Below, piece after piece: positions 10,144 through 37,934 of a stretch of 64,000 nucleotides of DNA. The position numbers and the translations under genes were made by a program. Every line of letters begins with the position of its first letter. Positions within the stretch are counted from its first letter, which is position 1. The notes beneath the pieces are model-generated. The model did not search any database. It had not been told where the DNA came from and saw nothing but the letters and a program-made list of their open reading frames with translations. The stretch is from a virus. Taxonomy: Duplodnaviria > Caudoviricetes. Where the stretch lies: the IMG/VR virus record IMGVR_UViG_3300037692_000137, positions 170,229 to 234,228 of that record; one strand, written 5' to 3'.

Positions 10144-10407
10144 CATATATATTCGAGTAAGATCGTTAAACTTACCCCGTCTATAATTTCTAGACAGCTG
10201 CATGTTTCCATACAGATTAGACTATATCACCAACCAATCTGGTTGCTACGCGCTTCCACTCACTTGAGTGTACTTCCTTTCGGAATAGTCGTTGCAGGTT
10301 CCTCATTAATAGAGGCTTCCCTCAGGATTGTCCTCGACTTGACGTTAGGATATTCCCTGAATTCACGTAGTTTTTCAAATCACATTACTGTAAAAAGCCG
10401 CCTATGG
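10144..10407 (-). ncRNA. Group I self-splicing intron (IA2-like, 264 nt, no homing endonuclease)
   Basis: P1 CCGU/GCGG with U.G at the 5' splice site; P2 with GUAA loop; P3 CUACGUG/CGCGUAG; P4 UCAGG/CCUGA; R CCUGCAACGACUA; S GAUAUAGUC (P7 GACUA/UAGUC); P7.1 UUCC-GAAA-GGAA; P7.2 CACUC/GAGUG; P8 CAACCA/UGGUUG; P9 UGUAUG-GAAA-CAUGCA; terminal G; removal restores an in-frame Csp. Confidence 0.93.
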
Positions 10408-10455
10408 ACGGTCGTTAGAAAACCATTTTACAACACCATTAATTCTTTCTTCCAT
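10408..10455 (-). CDS. csp: Cold-shock protein, exon 1 (MEERINGVVKWFSNDR)
   Basis: AAAGGAG SD; G-VVKWF Csp N-terminal motif; joins in frame to exon 2 (71 aa product). Confidence 0.9.
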
Positions 10456-20265: not shown

Positions 20266-21342
20266 TTATTTAAATATAATATCTAAATCATAATTACAGG
20301 CTTTTATAACTGCCAAGCAAGCCTCCACCACTTTATCGTCATACAATTTTCCAGAGCCCTTAGTTATCTCCTCCATAGCCACATTAATACCTAGAGACGC
20401 CCTATAAGGTCTATGCGATGCCATAGCTTCTACTGTATCTGCTACACCTAGTATCCTAGATTCTATAGATATCTGATCCCCTCTTAAACCATTTGGATAT
20501 CCAGATCCGTCTAGTCTTTCATGATGCTGTAATACCATTCTAGCTATTGGTGCTTCAAAAGGAATGTCACTAATTATATTGTATCCTTCTATAACATGTT
20601 TTTTTAATAATTTAAACTCTGTCTCATTCAATTTGGTTGGTTTAACCAGTAGCTCTTGTGGCACATAAAACTTTCCTATGTCATGCAACATGCCAGCCAA
20701 CTTTATATTTTCTATTTGTGTTTCATCTAAACCATAATACTCAGAAATTTTTACGGCCAGGGCTGTAACACGCTTTTGATGACCGGCCGTATATGGATCT
20801 CGTATCTCCATAGTTTTTGATAAGGCCTCTACAGTTTTATATAAAATACTACTTAAGTCTTTATTGGCCACTGCTAATTTTTCATTTGTTGCTGCTAAAT
20901 TATCTGTTCTTTCTTTAACAAGCTTTTCTAGTTGTTGTTGATACATTTGGTTATCTCTAACCAAGTCATGTTTCTCTAAACACTGGGTTACAGAATGCTT
21001 TAATATTTCTAACGTTATTGGCTTAGTTATAAAGTCACAGGCACCTTTTCTCAGGGCCTCCACCACGAATTCATTACATGTATTACCTGTTATTATAATA
21101 ATCTGTGATGGAGGGTACAATGCTTTAATTTTATCCATTAAGTCTAGGCCCATAGCATCAGGAAGACCTATGTCTAATAGCACTATTGGTGGAGAGTACT
21201 TTTTAAACGCAACTATACCGTCCACCCCTTTAGTAGCATTAATTATATTATCGAACCCAATTACAGATAACATTGTACTTATAACAGATAATATAGACTG
21301 GTCGTCGTCTATTACAAGTATAGGTTCTTTTATTCTTGTCAT
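20266..21342 (-). CDS. REC-HD-GYP cyclic dinucleotide phosphodiesterase (RpfG-like)
   Basis: REC VIDDD/LLDI/IITG/TKP; RDPYTAGHQKRV, LHDIGK, HHERLDGSGYPNGL, VADTVEAM, HRPYR all intact. Confidence 0.93.
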   Translation of the reverse strand: MTRIKEPILVIDDDQSILSVISTMLSVIGFDNIINATKGVDGIVAFKKYSPPIVLLDIGLPDAMGLDLMDKIKALYPPSQIIIITGNTCNEFVVEALRKGACDFITKPITLEILKHSVTQCLEKHDLVRDNQMYQQQLEKLVKERTDNLAATNEKLAVANKDLSSILYKTVEALSKTMEIRDPYTAGHQKRVTALAVKISEYYGLDETQIENIKLAGMLHDIGKFYVPQELLVKPTKLNETEFKLLKKHVIEGYNIISDIPFEAPIARMVLQHHERLDGSGYPNGLRGDQISIESRILGVADTVEAMASHRPYRASLGINVAMEEITKGSGKLYDDKVVEACLAVIKACNYDLDIIFK

Positions 21343-32271: not shown

Positions 32272-32310
32272 ATAGTTTATTTATCTCTAACCTTTTTCAG
32301 GAGAATTACC

Positions 32311-33072
32311 ATGAAATCTATTAAATCAATCGCAGTAGTAGCAATCATTGTTCTTTCACTCGTAGCCTGTAAACAAGAGGCTATGGTTAGTGCTCCTCAG
32401 CCCGCGGTAGTAGTTGGTAACGTATACACCACTGATGTTCTGCGTTATGAGGGCGACATTGTTAATAACATGCCCAATGGTAAGGGTGTTATCACCTTCA
32501 TCTGGGGTGATACTTATGCCGGAGATGTTGTCAACGCACTACCTAATGGCGGAGGTGTTATGCGTTATGTGGATGGCAGTATCTACCGCGGGCAGTGGAA
32601 GGACGGCCTGCGTGACGGGCATGGCAGGTTTGACTCATCTGATGGCAGCCGGTATAATGGTTCCTGGGTAGCAGGGAGTAAGCATGGCCAGGGAACACTT
32701 ACAGTGGATGGCCTTAGCCAGACGGGTACCTTTGAGAAAGACCAGCCCAAACGTGTTGTGGTTTTGGATACTAATACCTGTATCGAAGGTAACTGTCGCA
32801 CAGGCTATGGTATTAAACGCACAGCAGACGGTGTTTACTCTGGTGACTTCGAAAACGGTGACTTCCATGGACAAGGCACATTTAAGTATAGCAATGGTGA
32901 TACCTACAAGGGCAGCTTTCTCAAGGGACACATGTTTGGTGCTGGAAGGCTTACCAGCCCCAATAACCATTGTGTAACCATGGGTATCTGGGAAAGAGGT
33001 AAATGGGTTGAGGGTAACAGACGTTACGATGACGGTACACCTGAGTACATTCTTATGAGACACATTCTGTAA
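32311..33072 (+). CDS. MORN-repeat lipoprotein
   Basis: Signal peptide with lipobox LVA-C; repeated YxGxWxDGxRxGxG motifs. Confidence 0.85.
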   Translation: MKSIKSIAVVAIIVLSLVACKQEAMVSAPQPAVVVGNVYTTDVLRYEGDIVNNMPNGKGVITFIWGDTYAGDVVNALPNGGGVMRYVDGSIYRGQWKDGLRDGHGRFDSSDGSRYNGSWVAGSKHGQGTLTVDGLSQTGTFEKDQPKRVVVLDTNTCIEGNCRTGYGIKRTADGVYSGDFENGDFHGQGTFKYSNGDTYKGSFLKGHMFGAGRLTSPNNHCVTMGIWERGKWVEGNRRYDDGTPEYILMRHIL

Positions 33073-33083
33073 TTGTCGCTTCT

Positions 33084-33113
33084 CTCTGCTTATCTCCCGT
33101 TAGGTAAGCAGGG
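33084..33113 (+). other. Conserved hairpin, copy 1
   Basis: CTCTGCTTATC-8 nt-GGTAAGCAGGG just after a stop codon; related to 36398-36427. Confidence 0.6.
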
Positions 33114-33162
33114 GTTAGGAGACAAGAACAATAATAACCCTATCATGAAAAGGAGAAATATC

Positions 33163-33360
33163 ATGACCGCACAATTACGTTGGTTCGAGCGCATTCATCA
33201 GGCCGTTGTTGTTACACAAGATAAAGTGTGTAAATATCAAATTCACAATATGGAGGAGTTGGAAGTAGCCATTAAAGTATTAGAAAGTATGTTCAGTACT
33301 AGTGCTAAGCTGGTTAGTTCTAAGAAGCCAGATGTGTTCATATTTAACTTCAACAAATAA
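33163..33360 (+). CDS. Early hypothetical protein (65 aa; start re-called)
   Basis: AAGGAG SD. Confidence 0.55.
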   Translation: MTAQLRWFERIHQAVVVTQDKVCKYQIHNMEELEVAIKVLESMFSTSAKLVSSKKPDVFIFNFNK

Positions 33361-33434
33361 AAGGAGACACACGCCATGTCATTACGTTCAATTGTATGTA
33401 CGTGTCGCCGCACCCAGACAAGCCACACTTTCTT

Positions 33435-33502
33435 GTCGATTGGGCGACTATAAATAGGCATTAGGCCCAAAGCGCCCCTATCTATACCAGGTAGGGGGTT
33501 GC
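33435..33502 (+). ncRNA. Pistol ribozyme (predicted cleavage G33498/U33499)
   Basis: P1 GUCG/CGAC, loop AUUGGG pseudoknotting with CCCAA; UAUAAAUAG; P2 GCA/UGC; UUAGGCCCAAAGCG; P3 CCCCUAUCU/AGGUAGGGG; G-U cleavage dinucleotide. Confidence 0.88.
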
Positions 33503-33541
33503 TCTCTGTGTTAGTTTATTAACTTTATATAAGGAGATTGT

Positions 33542-33826
33542 ATGTCATATATCACACTTATTCATTGGACTATGCGCATATTTAAGAGTTCTTCTGTTCT
33601 TACTGTGCATGAAAAACAGATTATTTATGAAGTGCCTTTTTCCGGTTTATATGACGCTAAGTACATGCGTTATTTATTAATAAATAGGCTTATTCCAAAA
33701 GGAGAGTTAAGCGAATTAGATAAGTACATAAAAGAGGTACTTGTAGATGAATGGGATAAAGCATTAACAATAAGGGTGTGTGTTATTATACGCTATAACG
33801 CTGTCATAGGAGGTAGTCATGCCTAA
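33542..33826 (+). CDS. Early hypothetical protein (94 aa)
   Basis: AAGGAG SD. Confidence 0.55.
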   Translation: MSYITLIHWTMRIFKSSSVLTVHEKQIIYEVPFSGLYDAKYMRYLLINRLIPKGELSELDKYIKEVLVDEWDKALTIRVCVIIRYNAVIGGSHA

Positions 33827-34007
33827 ACAAAAAGGAGACACGTTGGTGCTTTATCAAAACATGTCAGACGGTCATTGGGTTAGGGGGTACTGCCTTTCGC
33901 CCGCATGTGCATGTAGTAACTACAGGAAAACACATTGTGACAATGGAACATGTCGTTTCTATAAAGAAGAGTTTATTTCTATTAAACAGAAAGGGGGTAG
34001 CTCATGA
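33819..34007 (+). CDS. Cys-rich early protein (62 aa)
   Basis: AGGAGG SD. Confidence 0.5.
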   Translation: MPKQKGDTLVLYQNMSDGHWVRGYCLSPACACSNYRKTHCDNGTCRFYKEEFISIKQKGGSS

Positions 34008-34172
34008 CTATAAGCACAGTAGCAAGGTGCTCTGTATGTAAACAATTAAAGAGATATTTCTATTTCTCTTTATCTGAGCAGGCTAAACTAAAACCAGCCG
34101 TGTGTAATGACTGTTTTGACTCAGTCAATGTACCTTTATTCACAATTATTGGCGTTGGGGGGGGGTAATATT

Positions 34173-34379
34173 ATGAGCACGTTCTTTATCACGATGGGTG
34201 TTGCTGCAGATGGGGGCTTTCAGCCGGTAAAAGCTGTAAAGCTGCCTAATAGCCGGATAGCTGTAGTAAACAGGAGCCCAATTACTACGCACTGTCCAGA
34301 GTTAGCAGAGGAGATAGCAGAGGCTTGGGCAAAAGAGGAAGGCTTAATCTACAACAAGAAGGAGAATGACTATGTTTAA
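34173..34379 (+). CDS. Early hypothetical protein (68 aa; start re-called)
   Basis: ATG preceded by a G9 tract that could serve as SD. Confidence 0.5.
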   Translation: MSTFFITMGVAADGGFQPVKAVKLPNSRIAVVNRSPITTHCPELAEEIAEAWAKEEGLIYNKKENDYV

Positions 34380-34602
34380 ACTCGACTCTCAGAACATACT
34401 TATTGGTGCTGTTATTGTAACAATTATCTGGTTCTTCAATTACATATTGGGTTCCATGCTGATTATTATAGCAGCAAGTGTTATCGGGTTGTTTATGTTT
34501 AACTGGCTTGGTAGTATATTCCGTAAGGATACAACAAAGCCCAAAGATAAGGCAAAAGACCCAACAGACTTGTCAGGGGCATTTAAGGAGACTAAACCAT
34601 GA
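34366..34602 (+). CDS. Small membrane protein (78 aa)
   Basis: Two hydrophobic segments; AAGGAG SD. Confidence 0.6.
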   Translation: MTMFKLDSQNILIGAVIVTIIWFFNYILGSMLIIIAASVIGLFMFNWLGSIFRKDTTKPKDKAKDPTDLSGAFKETKP

Positions 34603-34861
34603 AGATAGTAAAGGTAGTTTGCTCGTGGTGTATTGCTGAGGGGTTTCCTGTGACCCCTTTACATGAAATAGAGGTGCCTGATGATGTTGAAGGAGATTCA
34701 CACGGTATCTGCGAGTACCACGCCTCAGAGTTGGAAGAGATGCTGACGTTATACATGGAGTATGATGAGGAGTAAAGATATCAAACTTAATTACAAAGGA
34801 GACAGCAAAAATGTTCACATAACCTAAGGGAGGTGGTGCCTATGAGATAAGCGTTAGGGTT

Positions 34862-34940
34862 TAACGTGAAGGGCAAACCCGGAGCAATCCGGGGACGCAA
34901 AGCTATGGGCCCTCATTGTGAGGGCAGCCAGGTTACCAAA
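34862..34940 (+). ncRNA. c-di-GMP-I (GEMM-I) riboswitch
   Basis: AAG-GGCAAACC-CGGA-GCAA-UCCG-GGGACGCAAAGC-UAUGG-GCCCUCA/UGAGGGC-AGCCAG-GUUACC; GNRA loop; G at the position equivalent to G20. Confidence 0.9.
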
Positions 34941-34965
34941 CAAACCGAATTACAGGAGAATTACC

Positions 34966-35934
34966 ATGAAGAAATCAATCGTTATTTCCGCAATCGTTTC
35001 TCTTATTTCTATTATGTCTACCTCATCAGCACAGGGTGAACTCATTGATGGTCGTTTTACTGTTCTGGATACCACTACCAATTACGAATGGCAGAAACAC
35101 CCCTTCGTGTATACCAATTGGTATGACGGTAAGGACCAATGTGAAGACCTCGTTATGGATGGGCATGATGATTGGGTTATGCCTATGCCCGGCCATTTGA
35201 GAACAATCAAGGGCGTTATCCAGTACCTGGCATACAACTACATGTACTACCACACAATCAAAGAGTATTCAGCTACGGCGGACTACTCATACAACATTGA
35301 TACTGGTGTTGTTGGTGTTGTATCCAAATACAATCTTGGCAACGTTCGTTGTATGCGGGATGCTTCGGCTGATATGGCTGAGGTTATTACCAGCGTAACT
35401 ATCCAGAAAACCGGATATTACACGATGGCCACTTCCATTGCCAACGTAACTGGCATGGTATCAGCATTTGTTGATGGTGTTCTGGTGGCTTCTTACAATA
35501 CCGACTATATCAACACACCTGTTGGTATTGGCAATCTTACCGCCGGCCAGAATCTGGAAGTTACGGTCAATGGCGACAAGGCCGAGGGCATCAACGAAAT
35601 CGATTGGCAGAGTTGGGATATGACCTTTTCTGCCGGTGACATCGAAATCTATGTCGAAGACCCTCCGGTACCCAACAATTGTGTTGCCGCTGAGCCTACT
35701 GAAGAACTGCCCCCGCCGGTGATTGTTGAGGTGGGTATTACCAAGGCGCAAGTACTCAACAGTAAGAACAAGAGTACTTTAACGTTGGTATTGAACGTCC
35801 CTGAACAGATTACTATGGGAGACGGCCCCGCAGACTTCACGTTCTTCGTTTACAAGAATGGTTCAGATGTTGCGTATGTAGGTTCCACCGTAATGACACA
35901 CAAGGGGAATGGTAACATCATTTCCAATAAGTAG
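34966..35934 (+). CDS. Secreted DUF1566 (Lcl C-terminal-like) domain protein (322 aa; start re-called)
   Basis: CAGGAG SD; signal peptide; TVLDTTTNYEWQK...NWYDGKDQCEDL...GHDDWVMP...VRCMRD. Confidence 0.75.
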   Translation: MKKSIVISAIVSLISIMSTSSAQGELIDGRFTVLDTTTNYEWQKHPFVYTNWYDGKDQCEDLVMDGHDDWVMPMPGHLRTIKGVIQYLAYNYMYYHTIKEYSATADYSYNIDTGVVGVVSKYNLGNVRCMRDASADMAEVITSVTIQKTGYYTMATSIANVTGMVSAFVDGVLVASYNTDYINTPVGIGNLTAGQNLEVTVNGDKAEGINEIDWQSWDMTFSAGDIEIYVEDPPVPNNCVAAEPTEELPPPVIVEVGITKAQVLNSKNKSTLTLVLNVPEQITMGDGPADFTFFVYKNGSDVAYVGSTVMTHKGNGNIISNK

Positions 35935-35988
35935 TCTAACCAAAGGGGCGCCCTATCTGGGCGTCCCTACACCCAATGAGGTAATATT

Positions 35989-36390
35989 ATGACAGGGCAC
36001 TATAAACGTGGCATATACCACACAAATCAAGGCTTTGTTCACGTATATGCTCTCGAAAGTAAATGGTTGTATAAACGCGTATCCTTATCCTGTTTTACTG
36101 ATGTTGTAGAAGAAATGAATCAAGACACGTGGGATACTTGTGATGAAGTTAACGACTTGAACATATTAGCCAGATTTACACGCCCGGCTGATATTAGTGA
36201 CACATTCAGGATATGTGATGGAGCATCTACTTGCTTAAAGAACTGTTCAGCCAAGAAAGTACCTAATTCTGCTACGTGGATATCTACAGCAGTTTTAAAT
36301 AATCCTTCCGCCTGTATTCACTCAGACCACATAGATGGGGAAGAGCACGATTGTACGTACACAACTGTTTATGCCAAGTTAAAGCGTTAA
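35989..36390 (+). CDS. Early hypothetical protein (133 aa)
   Basis: GAGG SD; N-terminus resembles 38160..38405 (G.Y.G..G...V...E.KW.Y++V). Confidence 0.55.
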   Translation: MTGHYKRGIYHTNQGFVHVYALESKWLYKRVSLSCFTDVVEEMNQDTWDTCDEVNDLNILARFTRPADISDTFRICDGASTCLKNCSAKKVPNSATWISTAVLNNPSACIHSDHIDGEEHDCTYTTVYAKLKR

Positions 36391-36397
36391 CAATTCT

Positions 36398-36427
36398 TCC
36401 TGCTCATCAACTATTAGATGAGCGGGG
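36398..36427 (+). other. Conserved hairpin, copy 2 (possible pseudoknot to 36431-36437)
   Basis: TCCTGCTCATC-AACTATTA-GATGAGCGGGG; loop complementary to downstream AGTAGTT. Confidence 0.6.
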
Positions 36428-36639
36428 CTGAGTAGTTAAACCCGTACCACTTAATCTCTATACCAAGGAGGAGACCCATGAAACCAAAGTGTGGCTGTAC
36501 CGAATATGTGCTATGTGACAGATGTGCTATCATCCTGATGATGAAGATATTGTATTCATTTAGAAACGGTATTAAAAACGATACCACTACAACTACTAAT
36601 ACTGAACCTAAATAATTTATTCACTTGTGGAGGTGTACT

Positions 36640-36963
36640 ATGTTGGAAAAATGTAATGTTATCGAAAATAGTGTGTTGTGTGGTGAACCCGTACTTACAG
36701 ATGGTGCTTGTTATGACCACTGTGTTCCCTGTACTGTATGTGGTGAGCCTATTTCTAAACTTAAAGACAAACCTGTATGTGACTTGTGTGCGTACACCTC
36801 AGTACAGATGATTCCTGTCTATGTATGGCCGGATGATACGTGGATGTATGCGCATGAGTATAACGATGTTGAGGATGCCTGGCGGGGTGATGATTACACC
36901 ATCAAATACTTCTCTGGGGATTCTACGTATGAAGAAGTTGATGAGGCAGTATTGTCAAAGTAA
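36640..36963 (+). CDS. Cys-rich early protein (107 aa; start re-called)
   Basis: GGAGG SD. Confidence 0.6.
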   Translation: MLEKCNVIENSVLCGEPVLTDGACYDHCVPCTVCGEPISKLKDKPVCDLCAYTSVQMIPVYVWPDDTWMYAHEYNDVEDAWRGDDYTIKYFSGDSTYEEVDEAVLSK

Positions 36964-36983
36964 ACACTTGTGGAGGTGTGCTT

Positions 36984-37934
36984 ATGGATATTTATGAAAG
37001 AATAACTACCAGGCTTGATGGCTTCTTCAAAAAAGGTATGAAGAGGCATTCCTTTGTTGACAAACAACAACACCAGTTGGCCAGAATCAACGCCTCAAAG
37101 ATTTCAAGGGCGCTTAACTCACTGCCGATGTACTTTGTTAACATCTACGATGAATTGGTAAGTCCTACATTTAGGGAACACGCTGCTAAAATATCCGAAT
37201 ACGTAAAGAAGAATAACATTACAGTTGATGAAGTATATGCCGCGTTTAGGGCCCCTTACAATGATTTTGTTCTTTGCGATGGCGTGGACCTTTATATCGT
37301 AAATAGTCCCGCTAATCTTGTACTTAACATGTTGGTGTTTACACCATATCGTGATGAAGGGCGCCCTTATTTTGGTCTATATATTGAGGCCAATCTTAAT
37401 ACCGATATGTGGAAGGTAAAAGATATGGTGATGTTAACCCATAATGCGTTACTTCCTAAAAAGGCTGTTTCAAAAGTATCAGCTGCTGATATACGTAACA
37501 TTTGTAACAGTCTTGACATTGAGAAGCTAACAGATATGTTTACTCGTGTGGGCCGGGTCATTCATAATTTTGTAATTTGTTCTGTATTTAGTAAGTTTGA
37601 AGGCGAGTATACCGATATTAAGAAGGTTACTCCTGGTGTTAAGCCTATTAGTAGTAGGCCTAATGTATTCAGAGAAATAGATATTAACCTCAACCATACA
37701 AAGTTTATTATGAACCGCAAAGCACAACGTAAGGGGCATAAACTTCAGTATCAAAGTGCTATGCCCAGGATGTTGAAGTACATGCGGCACGAGCGGTATA
37801 GCCAGAATGGGACACTTCCTATACAGTACGACATTCAAGGTAAGCCATACTACTACACTGTTGAGGTTGATCCGTTTACCAGAGGAAAAGAACTTCCTCG
37901 GAAAGAAGACAGTATCAAATACAAAGTCGGTTAG
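36984..37934 (+). CDS. Hypothetical protein (316 aa)
   Basis: GGAGG SD; long ORF. Confidence 0.7.
   Translation: MDIYERITTRLDGFFKKGMKRHSFVDKQQHQLARINASKISRALNSLPMYFVNIYDELVSPTFREHAAKISEYVKKNNITVDEVYAAFRAPYNDFVLCDGVDLYIVNSPANLVLNMLVFTPYRDEGRPYFGLYIEANLNTDMWKVKDMVMLTHNALLPKKAVSKVSAADIRNICNSLDIEKLTDMFTRVGRVIHNFVICSVFSKFEGEYTDIKKVTPGVKPISSRPNVFREIDINLNHTKFIMNRKAQRKGHKLQYQSAMPRMLKYMRHERYSQNGTLPIQYDIQGKPYYYTVEVDPFTRGKELPRKEDSIKYKVG

What the first reader, a model, noticed from the sequence alone, without database searches (positions are those of the whole stretch)
34862..35934. Phage-borne c-di-GMP-I riboswitch controlling a secreted DUF1566 protein
Seen in sequence: a near-canonical GEMM-I aptamer (GGCAAACC...GCAA tetraloop...GGGACGCAAAGC...GUUACC) ends about 16 nt before the CAGGAG SD of a signal-peptide DUF1566 gene, with no terminator between, suggesting translational control. 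The G20-equivalent position is G, which by established rules favours c-di-GMP over 3',3'-cGAMP (A20 in Geobacter GEMM-Ib). Established: cyclic-dinucleotide riboswitches in phages are rare (C. difficile phiCD119 is the known case). Inference: the phage reads the host's biofilm/motility state to set expression of an exported lectin-like protein.
Basis: partly seen in the sequence, partly recalled or inferred. Interest (0 to 1): 0.82.

Follow-up and report, generated by a model that had tools for sequence, protein, structure and literature searches.

The report
Jumbo-phage c-di-GMP riboswitch before secreted lectin
A 234-kb sediment phage carries a genuine, evolutionarily conserved RNA sensor for the bacterial lifestyle signal c-di-GMP in front of a gene for an exported sugar-binding-type protein; this is a real and rarely reported case, but of a known kind of switch.

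Summary
Confirmed. Window 34863-34941 (+) is a class-I c-di-GMP aptamer, scoring 75.1 bits on Rfam RF01051 (cut-off 35). cmscan prints the rarer label c-di-GMP-I-GGC (66.3 bits), but only through E-value competition. The three ligand-contact positions (34872, 34899, 34936) read G/A/C, the canonical c-di-GMP triad. They are neither G/G/C nor the A20 of cGAMP sensors.

The aptamer lies inside a 234-kb sediment phage. It ends 12 nt before the Shine-Dalgarno (SD) site of a 322-aa exported protein with two lectin-like domains: an Lcl_C/C-type-lectin fold (Z 14.2) and a LecB-like sandwich (Z 9.0). It is kept in front of orthologues down to about 30% identity, with 98% of cells paired and 10 stem pairs changed on both sides. 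Two orthologous loci lack it.

No terminator and no anti-SD element are detectable. Translational control is therefore inferred from layout only, and its direction is open (OFF slightly favoured).

The phage also encodes an intact REC-HD-GYP phosphodiesterase and a histidine kinase, but no GGDEF cyclase.

The kind is known from C. difficile prophages. This scan has already reported the same switch on other DNA, a sister 237-kb phage, and further ones in other jumbo phages. Verdict: new member of a known kind.

The parts
34827..34850 (+). Conserved extended Shine-Dalgarno (AAGGGAGGUGGUG) plus a two-codon mini-ORF (AUG AGA UAA, 34842-34850), about 10 nt 5' of the P1 strand. Its role is unexplained.
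   Evidence: The element is identical or nearly so in L040, L033, L041, L036, L043, L049 and L035, whatever the upstream ORF or frame. It occurs once in the phage genome. The 18-mer is common in IMG/VR without any aptamer.
34859..34941 (+). c-di-GMP-I (GEMM-I) aptamer. Proposed P1 is 34859-62 and 34866 pairing with 34937-41. P1a (P2) is 34873-34898 with a GCAA tetraloop at 34884-87. P1b (P3) is 34901-34934. The contact triad is G34872, A34899 and C34936. The interhelical pair is C34896-G34927.
   Evidence: RF01051 gives 75.1 bits against a cut-off of 35 and RF03167 66.3 bits. On six distinct sequences, 98.1% of cells are paired and 10 pairs change on both sides, with 0 of 500 shuffles as good; slid controls give 30-48% paired. 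P1 shows no covariation and its register is inferred.
34942..34952 (+). Linker between aptamer and SD (AAACCGAAUUA). It is A/C-rich with no terminator. The first six bases are invariant in the clade and the rest vary (L043).
34953..34970 (+). Translation-initiation block CAGGAGAAUUACCAUGAA (SD at 34954-58, AUG at 34966-68). The same 18 nt precede the MORN lipoprotein gene at 32298-32315, where there is no riboswitch.
34966..35934 (+). Gene for a 322-aa exported protein. Signal peptide is aa 1-22 (34966-35031). The Lcl_C/DUF1566 C-type-lectin-like domain is aa 24-133 (35035-35364). The LecB-like beta-sandwich is aa 139-233 (35380-35664). A low-confidence C-terminal beta domain is aa 257-312 (35734-35901).
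   Evidence: Translation. Pfam Lcl_C E 5.9e-6, below the cut-off. Homologues. AlphaFold2 model with pLDDT 76.8. 8q4e Z 14.2, 8oks Z 12.5, 1gzt Z 9.0.
35944..35970 (+). Nine-pair GC-rich hairpin just after the stop codon, with no U-tract.
   Evidence: Read from the sequence. Not called as a terminator.
20266..21342 (-). Phage REC-HD-GYP response regulator, the predicted c-di-GMP phosphodiesterase. It is the possible second half of a c-di-GMP circuit, 13.5 kb away on the other strand.
   Evidence: HD_5 E 4.6e-41 and Response_reg E 4e-21. HD and HHERLDGSGYP motifs are intact. It is the only HD_5 in the record, which has no GGDEF. A 1215-aa ORF with HATPase_c lies elsewhere in the record.

Best explanation
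The element is a functional, canonical c-di-GMP-I riboswitch carried by a 234-kb phage.

Shown:
- The aptamer has the full GEMM-I architecture, the G/A/C ligand-contact triad and the interhelical C-G pair.
- It evolves under structural constraint in front of one gene family of exported lectin-like proteins.

Inferred:
- It binds host-made c-di-GMP (about 0.85). The phage has no diguanylate cyclase.
- It controls translation initiation of the downstream cistron inside a polycistronic early-region mRNA (about 0.6).
- The most likely mode is OFF. The very stable ligand-bound fold, with P1 closed at 34937-41, would sit within the roughly 35 nt of mRNA that a 30S subunit covers upstream of AUG 34966. 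That would hinder ribosome loading (about 0.55 OFF against ON, if control is translational).
- The product is exported to the envelope, where its two lectin-type domains would bind a glycan, such as a matrix or surface polysaccharide.
- Because the phage also brings a switch-controlled HD-GYP phosphodiesterase and a kinase, the level that the riboswitch reads may be partly set by the phage itself.
For: Identity:
- RF01051 scores 75.1 bits against a cut-off of 35.
- Contact positions were read from the covariance-model alignment. They match the G20/A47/C92 rule for Vc2 (PMC4744006; PMC5888326).
- C34896 and G34927 are invariant.

Selection:
- Five diverged versions in the close clade plus L049 give 98.1% pairing. 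Ten pairs change on both sides, with 0 of 500 shuffles as good. Slid controls give 30-48%.
- An aptamer also stands before orthologues of about 28-32% identity (L049, L050) and before a protein sharing the middle domain (L052).

Layout:
- There is no terminator.
- The C92-to-SD distance is 7-20 nt and SD-to-AUG is 7 nt in six of the seven lineages. L052, the seventh, was mis-scored at an upstream AUG and has 8 nt to its called start.
- L052 has a significant anti-SD next to P1 (5 of 300 shuffles as good), which shows that the family can use translational control.

Phage origin.

Protein.

c-di-GMP toolkit.
Against: - No ligand binding or regulation was measured.
- In the window clade no anti-SD or alternative fold is detectable. 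The best duplex is matched by 86 of 200 and 271 of 300 shuffles.
- SD accessibility is unchanged when the aptamer is forced (0.55 against 0.55).
- P1 is short (1 + 4 pairs with a 1-3-nt bulge) and has no covariation.
- The initiation block is reused without a riboswitch at the MORN gene, so it is not a dedicated expression platform.
- Two orthologous loci (L035, L051) lack the aptamer, so it is dispensable.
- No promoter was found.
- The host is unknown.
Confidence: 0.6

Rival explanations
1. It is a member of the variant class c-di-GMP-I-GGC (RF03167), as cmscan prints. It would then have an altered, still unknown ligand rather than c-di-GMP.
For: cmscan reports RF03167 at 66.3 bits, above its cut-off of 59, for the window and for L026, L036, L041 and L043.
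Against: - The label follows E-value only; RF01051 scores more bits (75.1).
- At the model position where the GGC consensus has G (position 37, the A47 equivalent), the window and every relative have A.
- The RF03168 'UAU' consensus confirms that these names encode positions 20/47/92.
- L018, an unrelated viral aptamer with A47, gets the same label.
Confidence: 0.04
2. The aptamer senses c-di-GMP but acts on the transcript rather than on initiation. It could act through Rho-dependent termination in the C/A-rich, G-poor linker (34937-34952), or through RNase cleavage or stability.
For: - No anti-SD element was found.
- The linker CCAAACAAACCG is invariant in the clade while the bases after it vary.
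- The switch sits inside an operon-like row of small genes without a visible promoter.
Against: - The SD lies 7-20 nt from the aptamer in all lineages, and L052 has a clear anti-SD.
- There is very little room for Rho loading before the ribosome site.
- The linker motif is absent from L049, L050 and L052.
Confidence: 0.2
3. The aptamer gates ribosomes handed on from the conserved upstream mini-ORF. Ribosomes load at the perfect extended SD (34827-39), finish the two-codon ORF at 34850, and reach AUG 34966 only if the aptamer is not locked by ligand. Conversely, a ribosome on the mini-ORF would keep P1 (34859-62) open.
For: - The SD plus AUG plus 1-6 codons plus stop is conserved at the nucleotide level in loci whose proteins are only about 30% identical. 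It lies in different upstream frames or in intergenic DNA.
- In L041 and L036 its stop codon lies inside the P1 5' strand.
- No classical expression platform was found.
Against: - The element is kept in L035, where there is no aptamer.
- 115 nt is long for re-initiation.
- The 18-mer is a generic strong ribosome site, found 44 times in IMG/VR without an aptamer nearby.
- L052 has a promoter and no such ORF.
Confidence: 0.1
4. The aptamer is a passenger. It came with a host-derived gene cassette and is no longer used, or it is decaying.
For: - It is lost in L035 and L051 and looks degenerate in L050.
- Its P1 is weak.
Against: - Ten compensatory pairs with 98% pairing were found across phage lineages.
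- All contact and tertiary-pair bases are invariant.
- Its position relative to the SD is retained down to about 30% protein identity.
- There is no compositional anomaly.
Confidence: 0.06

Closest known systems
Vc2 c-di-GMP-I riboswitch of Vibrio cholerae (leader of VC1722/tfoY; PDB 3IRW numbering)
   Same: Same Rfam family. It shares the two-hairpin core with a GNRA loop, the G20/A47/C92 contact triad, the interhelical C-G pair, and a P1 that closes on ligand binding (PMC4744006). There is no intrinsic terminator after the aptamer.
   Different: - Vc2 is chromosomal and lies in a 5' leader after its own promoter.
- Here the aptamer is phage-borne and sits between cistrons.
- Here the tetraloop is GCAA or GUAA, P3 is compact, and P1 is very short and bulged.
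- Binding has not been measured here.
Vc1 c-di-GMP-I riboswitch of V. cholerae (gbpA leader)
   Same: A class-I aptamer controlling a secreted sugar-binding colonisation protein (PMC4744006). This is the nearest functional analogy to a riboswitch in front of an exported lectin-like protein.
   Different: - Vc1 is an ON switch with a 244-nt leader.
- The direction here is unknown, and the SD is only 12 nt from the aptamer.
- The proteins are unrelated (GbpA against Lcl_C plus a LecB-like domain).
c-di-GMP-I riboswitches in Clostridioides difficile prophages (Sudarsan et al. 2008, as cited in PMC5473149)
   Same: They are phage-borne class-I c-di-GMP aptamers. They were the only phage cases known to that 2017 survey.
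   Different: - They occur in temperate phages of a Gram-positive pathogen. I recall C. difficile class-I switches generally acting by terminators; that is not checked here.
- Here the carrier is a 234-kb uncultured sediment phage with no terminator, a secreted double-lectin gene, and its own HD-GYP enzyme and kinase.
c-di-GMP-I-GGC variant (Rfam RF03167)
   Same: Compact P3 and overall sequence, so the model scores 66.3 bits, above its cut-off.
   Different: The defining G at position 47 is A here, so this is not a member.
GEMM-Ib 3',3'-cGAMP riboswitches of Geobacter (Kellenberger et al. 2015; Nelson et al. 2015, as cited in PMC7266159)
   Same: Same fold.
   Different: Those have A at position 20 and the window has G (34872). 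Only the distant locus L050 has A there.
Legionella pneumophila Lcl C-terminal domain (PDB 8Q4E), Bdellovibrio Bd2740 fibre tip (8OKS), and Pseudomonas LecB (1GZT)
   Same: Predicted folds match. For aa 24-133: Z 14.2 (109 residues, 2.4 A) and Z 12.5. For aa 139-233: Z 9.0 (94 of 114 residues, 2.9 A).
   Different: - Sequence identity is only 9-16%.
- The sugar- and calcium-binding residues were not checked.
- Those are a cell-surface adhesin, a predator fibre and a soluble lectin, not a phage-encoded Sec-exported protein.
Sister finding of this scan: c-di-GMP riboswitch in a roughly 237-kb groundwater phage (e1-5363491)
   Same: It reports the same gene, the same aptamer position, and the same pairing with a kinase and a c-di-GMP-degrading enzyme. 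My locus L040 comes from a 236,830-bp contig with an 81%-identical protein and a covarying aptamer.
   Different: It is a different genome. P2 differs at four of six pairs and all changes keep pairing (three pairs change on both sides, one on one side). The upstream genes differ.

Membership tests
c-di-GMP-I riboswitch (GEMM-I, RF01051) | Covariance-model score above the curated cut-off | tested here: met
   75.1 bits against 35, E 5.6e-16 in the 234-kb record.
c-di-GMP-I riboswitch (GEMM-I, RF01051) | Two adjacent hairpins (P2, P3) supported by covariation, with a GNRA tetraloop on P2 | tested here: met
   98.1% of cells paired, 10 pairs changed on both sides, 0 of 500 shuffles as good, slid controls 30-48%. 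Tetraloop is GCAA in the window, GUAA in the close clade and GUGA in L049.
c-di-GMP-I riboswitch (GEMM-I, RF01051) | Ligand-contact bases G20, A47 and C92, and the interhelical C-G pair | tested here: met
   G34872, A34899 and C34936, read from the covariance-model alignment. C34896 and G34927 are invariant. The rule is taken from PMC4744006 and PMC5888326.
c-di-GMP-I riboswitch (GEMM-I, RF01051) | P1 helix formed by the 5' and 3' flanks | tested here: inconclusive
   The Rfam register gives one standard pair. My register gives G34866-C34937 plus 34859-62 with 34938-41, with a bulge of 1-3 nt. There is no covariation, and 92% of cells are paired.
c-di-GMP-I riboswitch (GEMM-I, RF01051) | Selective binding of c-di-GMP and a ligand-dependent change of gene expression | not testable with these tools
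   This needs in-line probing or ITC, and reporter assays.
c-di-GMP-I-GGC variant (RF03167) | G at the position equivalent to A47 (model position 37) | tested here: not met
   The window and all relatives have A. The score of 66.3 bits exceeds the cut-off of 59 but is lower than for RF01051.
3',3'-cGAMP riboswitch (GEMM-Ib) | A at position 20 | tested here: not met
   G at 34872 in the window, the close clade, L049 and L052. Only L050 has A.
Translational (SD-sequestering) riboswitch | An anti-SD or alternative helix that masks the ribosome site in one ligand state | tested here: not met
   The best duplex is no better than shuffles (86 of 200 and 271 of 300 as good). P(unpaired) of the SD is 0.55 both free and with the aptamer forced. 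The feature is met only in L052 (5 of 300). Control by steric hindrance remains possible.
DUF1566 / Lcl_C domain (PF07603) | Pfam model at the gathering score | tested here: not met
   27 bits against 34.9, E 5.9e-6, covering profile positions 2-117.
DUF1566 / Lcl_C domain (PF07603) | Homology to above-threshold members, and the Lcl_C fold | tested here: met
   636 hits at E <= 1e-3. The seven sampled hits that match through the N-terminal domain score 41-466 bits on PF07603. 8q4e gives Z 14.2 and Foldseek E 2.4e-5. The motifs D35, W42, C59, DW69-70, P73 and RC128-129 are kept.
Sec-exported protein | N-terminal signal peptide with a signal-peptidase-I site and no lipobox | tested here: met
   MKK, then a 14-residue hydrophobic core, then SSA|QG, conserved in P0002-P0005. 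Read by eye; no predictor was available.
HD-GYP c-di-GMP phosphodiesterase (RpfG type) | REC plus HD_5 domains with HD and HHExxDGxGYP motifs | tested here: met
   HD_5 140.8 bits and REC 75.7 bits. LHDIGK and HHERLDGSGYP are present. Activity was not tested.

The most novel reading that the evidence does not exclude
The phage runs a self-contained c-di-GMP circuit. Its own sensor kinase drives its REC-HD-GYP phosphodiesterase to lower the host's c-di-GMP after infection. The riboswitch reads that fall (or the host's starting level) as a timer or lifestyle gate for an exported double lectin. It may act through an unconventional platform, in which the ligand-locked aptamer blocks ribosomes arriving from a conserved two-codon mini-ORF rather than masking the SD.
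Probability: 0.15. Interest if true: 0.75.

Novelty: new member of a known kind. Interest (0 to 1): 0.5.

Why it matters
Riboswitch surveys have concluded that phages rarely use riboswitches (PMC5473149). A canonical c-di-GMP sensor kept by selection in a lineage of 234-237-kb environmental phages argues that some large phages read the biofilm/motility messenger directly. The aptamer sits in front of an exported lectin-type protein, next to a phage-encoded c-di-GMP phosphodiesterase and kinase.

This gives a compact test system: a 100-nt RNA, one reporter fusion and one enzyme. It can address how a virus couples gene expression to, and perhaps rewires, a host second messenger.

It also flags an annotation trap. 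Rfam's clan competition labels such compact canonical aptamers as the 'GGC' variant.

Tried and rejected
- **Phage database search.** blastn of 33000-37000 against the phage collection gave no match. A protein-pattern scan of IMG/VR with the single protein found no relative.
- **Anti-SD search.** RNAduplex of the initiation region against everything upstream, and of the 5' flank against the 3' flank in seven lineages, found nothing beyond shuffles except in L052. Constrained folding showed no change in SD accessibility.
- **A long-range 'P0' helix.** Pairing between GCCUAUG (34838-44) and the UAUAGG of the relatives is broken by the C at 34953 in the window and is absent in L043 and L049. Rejected.
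- **The upstream 16-18-nt motif as a phage promoter.** It has a single copy in the genome. Its 44 exact copies in IMG/VR carry no aptamer. It reads as a generic full-length SD.
- **More copies of the L050-type variant.** Only chance hits were found.
- **Co-occurrence of HD-GYP and riboswitch in another IMG/VR record.** The only relative is a 39-kb fragment that would not contain the riboswitch locus, so the test is inconclusive.
- **RF01051 scores for L049, L050 and L052.** Not obtainable, because those records are not held.
- **Expression.** No RNA holder is listed. Four wastewater runs guessed to be RNA hold only short contig pieces of relatives and of the conserved aptamer core. They say nothing about expression or transcript ends.
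- **First AlphaFold2 run.** With five sequences it was unusable (pLDDT 43).
- **Papers not held.** Weinberg et al. 2017 PNAS, Smith et al. 2009 and Kellenberger et al. 2015. The meaning of 'GGC' and 'UAU' was therefore deduced from the two Rfam consensus lines.
- **Literature search.** Searches for riboswitch + jumbo phage + c-di-GMP found nothing.
- **Composition.** No anomaly around the locus.
Full report
**Observation.**

Rfam covariance models match 34863-34941 on the + strand. The family scan prints c-di-GMP-I-GGC (RF03167) at 66.3 bits against a cut-off of 59. Searched alone, the parent family c-di-GMP-I (RF01051) scores 75.1 bits against a cut-off of 35, E 5.6e-16 in the whole record. 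RF03167 gives 66.3 bits and E 1.6e-16. The printed label is therefore a product of E-value competition within the clan.

The window is bases 170229-234228 of a 234,228-bp IMG/VR virus record. It has a terminase, a tail protein and PhoH to the left and PHROG-matching genes to the right of the locus. The element is therefore phage DNA and not a host flank. This is the only GEMM-I match in the record.

**Which kind of GEMM-I.**

In Vc2 the ligand is contacted by G20, A47 and C92, and an interhelical C-G pair is universal (PMC4744006; PMC5888326). The Rfam consensus lines show that the variant names encode these three positions. RF03167 has G / G / C. RF03168 'UAU' has U / A / U. In each case the positions are the base before the closing G-C pair, the base after it, and the base before the P1 3' strand. 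The window reads G34872 / A34899 / C34936, which is the canonical triad. It is therefore neither a GGC variant nor an A20 cGAMP-type aptamer. C34896 and G34927, the interhelical pair, are invariant in all relatives, while the base before G34927 varies A/C/U. An unrelated viral aptamer (L018) and all relatives, all with A47, receive the same 'GGC' label. The label tracks the compact P3, not the diagnostic base.

**Conservation.**

The downstream protein has orthologues of 81-87% identity on many contigs, including ones of 236,830, 156,468 and 102,448 bp. All carry the aptamer at the same place.

The P2 stem differs among them at five of six pairs and always stays paired (for example CCCGGA/UCCGGG against CUUGUC/GGCAAG). 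A much more distant orthologue (L049, about 30% identity) has the aptamer too, with P3 almost completely rewritten but still paired.

Counting on six distinct sequences gives 98.1% of cells paired. Ten pairs change on both sides, with 0 of 500 shuffles reaching this. Slid controls give 30-48% pairing.

A model built from these (R1) also finds aptamers in two further places:
- before P0086 (L052, 42.6 bits), a protein that shares only the middle domain;
- a weak, odd one before P0034 (L050, 32.6 bits).

It finds none before the 59%-identical orthologue L035 or before L051. The association is therefore old, selected and occasionally lost.

**Expression platform.**

No terminator-like site lies between the aptamer and AUG 34966. 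The SD (AGGAG, 34954-58) starts 12 nt after the Rfam 3' end. In six of the seven lineages, C92-to-SD is 11-20 nt and SD-to-AUG is 7 nt. L052, the seventh, has the shortest C92-to-SD distance (7 nt) and was mis-scored at an upstream AUG, with 8 nt to its called start.

I looked for an anti-SD in three ways:
- duplex search of the initiation region against all upstream sequence (best -9.1 kcal/mol, matched by 86 of 200 shuffles);
- flank-against-flank search in each lineage (271, 174, 78 and 176 of 300 shuffles as good in the window clade; 5 of 300 in L052, where UUCCUU beside P1 pairs with AAGGAG);
- partition-function folding with the aptamer helices enforced (mean unpaired probability of the SD 0.55 in both states).

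For the window, translational control is therefore inferred from geometry and from L052, and is not shown.

The 18-nt block from CAGGAG to AUGAA is reused verbatim before the MORN lipoprotein gene at 32298-32315, where there is no riboswitch. It is a generic initiation module.

P1 is weak. The Rfam register gives one standard pair. I propose G34866-C34937 plus 34859-62 with 34938-41. The bulge between them shrinks from 3 to 1 nt among relatives.

The most economical mechanism is steric. The ligand-locked aptamer lies within the mRNA stretch that a 30S subunit must occupy upstream of the start codon. The very slow ligand release from Vc2 is reported in PMC4744006. The extent of the 30S footprint is from my own knowledge.

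**An unexplained neighbour.**

About 10 nt before P1 lies a full-length SD complement followed, 8 nt later, by AUG, then 1-6 codons and a stop. In the window this is AUG AGA UAA at 34842-50.

It is conserved at nucleotide level in every related locus, including L049 and the aptamer-less L035. It lies in different frames of different upstream ORFs, or in intergenic DNA. In L041 and L036 its stop codon lies inside the P1 5' strand.

It is unique in the phage genome. The 18-mer occurs 44 times in IMG/VR without any aptamer, so by itself it is just a very strong ribosome site. A ribosome on it would cover P1. Whether this matters is open.

**The protein.**

The 322-aa product begins with MKK, a 14-residue hydrophobic core and SSA|QG, with no lipobox. 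This is conserved in the orthologues.

Direct Pfam evidence for Lcl_C/DUF1566 is below threshold (27 bits against 34.9). However, an exhaustive search finds 636 relatives at E <= 1e-3, most of which match the query through its N-terminal domain. The seven of these that were sampled, some with many repeats, score 41-466 bits on PF07603.

With a 42-row alignment the AlphaFold2 model reaches pLDDT about 90 for residues 30-135 and 143-231.
- Residues 24-133 match the Legionella Lcl C-terminal domain (Z 14.2, 109 residues, 2.4 A; Foldseek E 2.4e-5). They also match a Bdellovibrio fibre-tip domain (Z 12.5) and then C-type lectin domains (Z 8-10).
- Residues 139-233 match Pseudomonas LecB (Z 9.0, 94 of 114 residues).

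'Exported lectin-like protein' is therefore supported at fold level. Sugar binding is not shown.

**Context.**

On the other strand, 13.5 kb away, the phage encodes REC plus HD_5 with intact HD and HHERLDGSGYP motifs. This is the only HD-GYP in the record, and no GGDEF domain is present. A 1215-aa ORF with a histidine-kinase ATPase domain lies elsewhere. The messenger must come from the host, and the phage may lower it. I could not test whether the HD-GYP gene and the riboswitch co-occur in other phages.

**What is known.**

A 2017 survey states that only two c-di-GMP-I riboswitches, in C. difficile prophages, were known from phages, and that phages rarely use riboswitches (PMC5473149). Searches of the held literature found no paper linking riboswitches, jumbo phages and c-di-GMP.

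A strict two-block pattern found 23 IMG/VR stretches. Twelve of these are bona fide aptamers by Rfam, mostly next to Firmicutes-type RNA motifs, pilin/adhesin genes or solute-binding genes.

Notes of this scan report the same switch in a sister 237-kb phage, and others in further jumbo phages. Those are leads, not evidence.

**Verdict.**

This is a real, selected, canonical c-di-GMP-I riboswitch in a jumbo phage, a new member of a known kind. Its interesting features are the secreted double-lectin target, the phage's own HD-GYP enzyme and kinase, the absence of a recognisable expression platform, and the conserved mini-ORF. The regulatory mode and its direction remain to be measured.

Noticed in passing
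window 33434-33503 (+): Pistol self-cleaving ribozyme (RF02679, 65.3 bits against a cut-off of 34.5) in the same row of small + strand genes, 1.4 kb upstream of the riboswitch. The Rfam scan of the relative's equivalent region (L026) found no pistol, and the window has about 470 extra bases there.
   Followed up: partly
window 10198-10417 (-): Group I intron (RF00028, 86 bits, full-length model match).
   Followed up: no
window 34827-34850 (+): Perfect extended Shine-Dalgarno plus a two-codon mini-ORF just before the aptamer. It is conserved at nucleotide level in loci whose proteins are only about 30% identical, and in a locus without the aptamer. It resembles a phage 'minigene'. Its function is unknown.
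   Followed up: partly
L050:942-1026 (+): Aptamer-like element before a roughly 28%-identical orthologue. Its contact triad reads A/A/C, the cGAMP-type signature, but its internal loops are altered and its scores are low (33.5 bits on RF03168, 32.6 on my model). It is a single sequence. It may be a decaying copy or a sensor of another dinucleotide.
   Followed up: partly
L052:1000-1170 (+): An AT-rich contig carries a sigma-70-like promoter (TTGACA, 17 nt, TATAGT), then a canonical GEMM-I with a GAAA loop, then an anti-SD UUCCUU beside P1. It stands before a 439-aa protein that shares only the LecB-like middle domain with the window's protein.
   Followed up: partly
window 34863-34941; L018, L026, L036, L041, L043, L049: cmscan's clan competition prints 'c-di-GMP-I-GGC' for compact canonical aptamers that have A, not G, at the diagnostic position. 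This is an annotation trap.
   Followed up: yes
window 32298-32315 and 34953-34970 (+): The identical 18-nt initiation block CAGGAGAATTACCATGAA stands before both exported-protein genes, the MORN-repeat lipoprotein gene and the DUF1566 gene. Only the second has a riboswitch.
   Followed up: yes
window 20266-21342 (-); G000:C1:20106-20462 (-): The phage encodes an intact REC-HD-GYP protein and a 1215-aa ORF with a histidine-kinase ATPase domain. No GGDEF domain occurs anywhere in the 234-kb record.
   Followed up: yes
L035:2907-3000; L051:415-584: Orthologous or related loci keep the upstream SD motif, degenerate in L051, but have no aptamer. L051's upstream gene is a stand-alone receiver domain.
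   Followed up: partly
window 35944-35970 (+) and 33077-33112 (+): GC-rich hairpins without U-tracts directly after the stop codons of both exported-protein genes.
   Followed up: no
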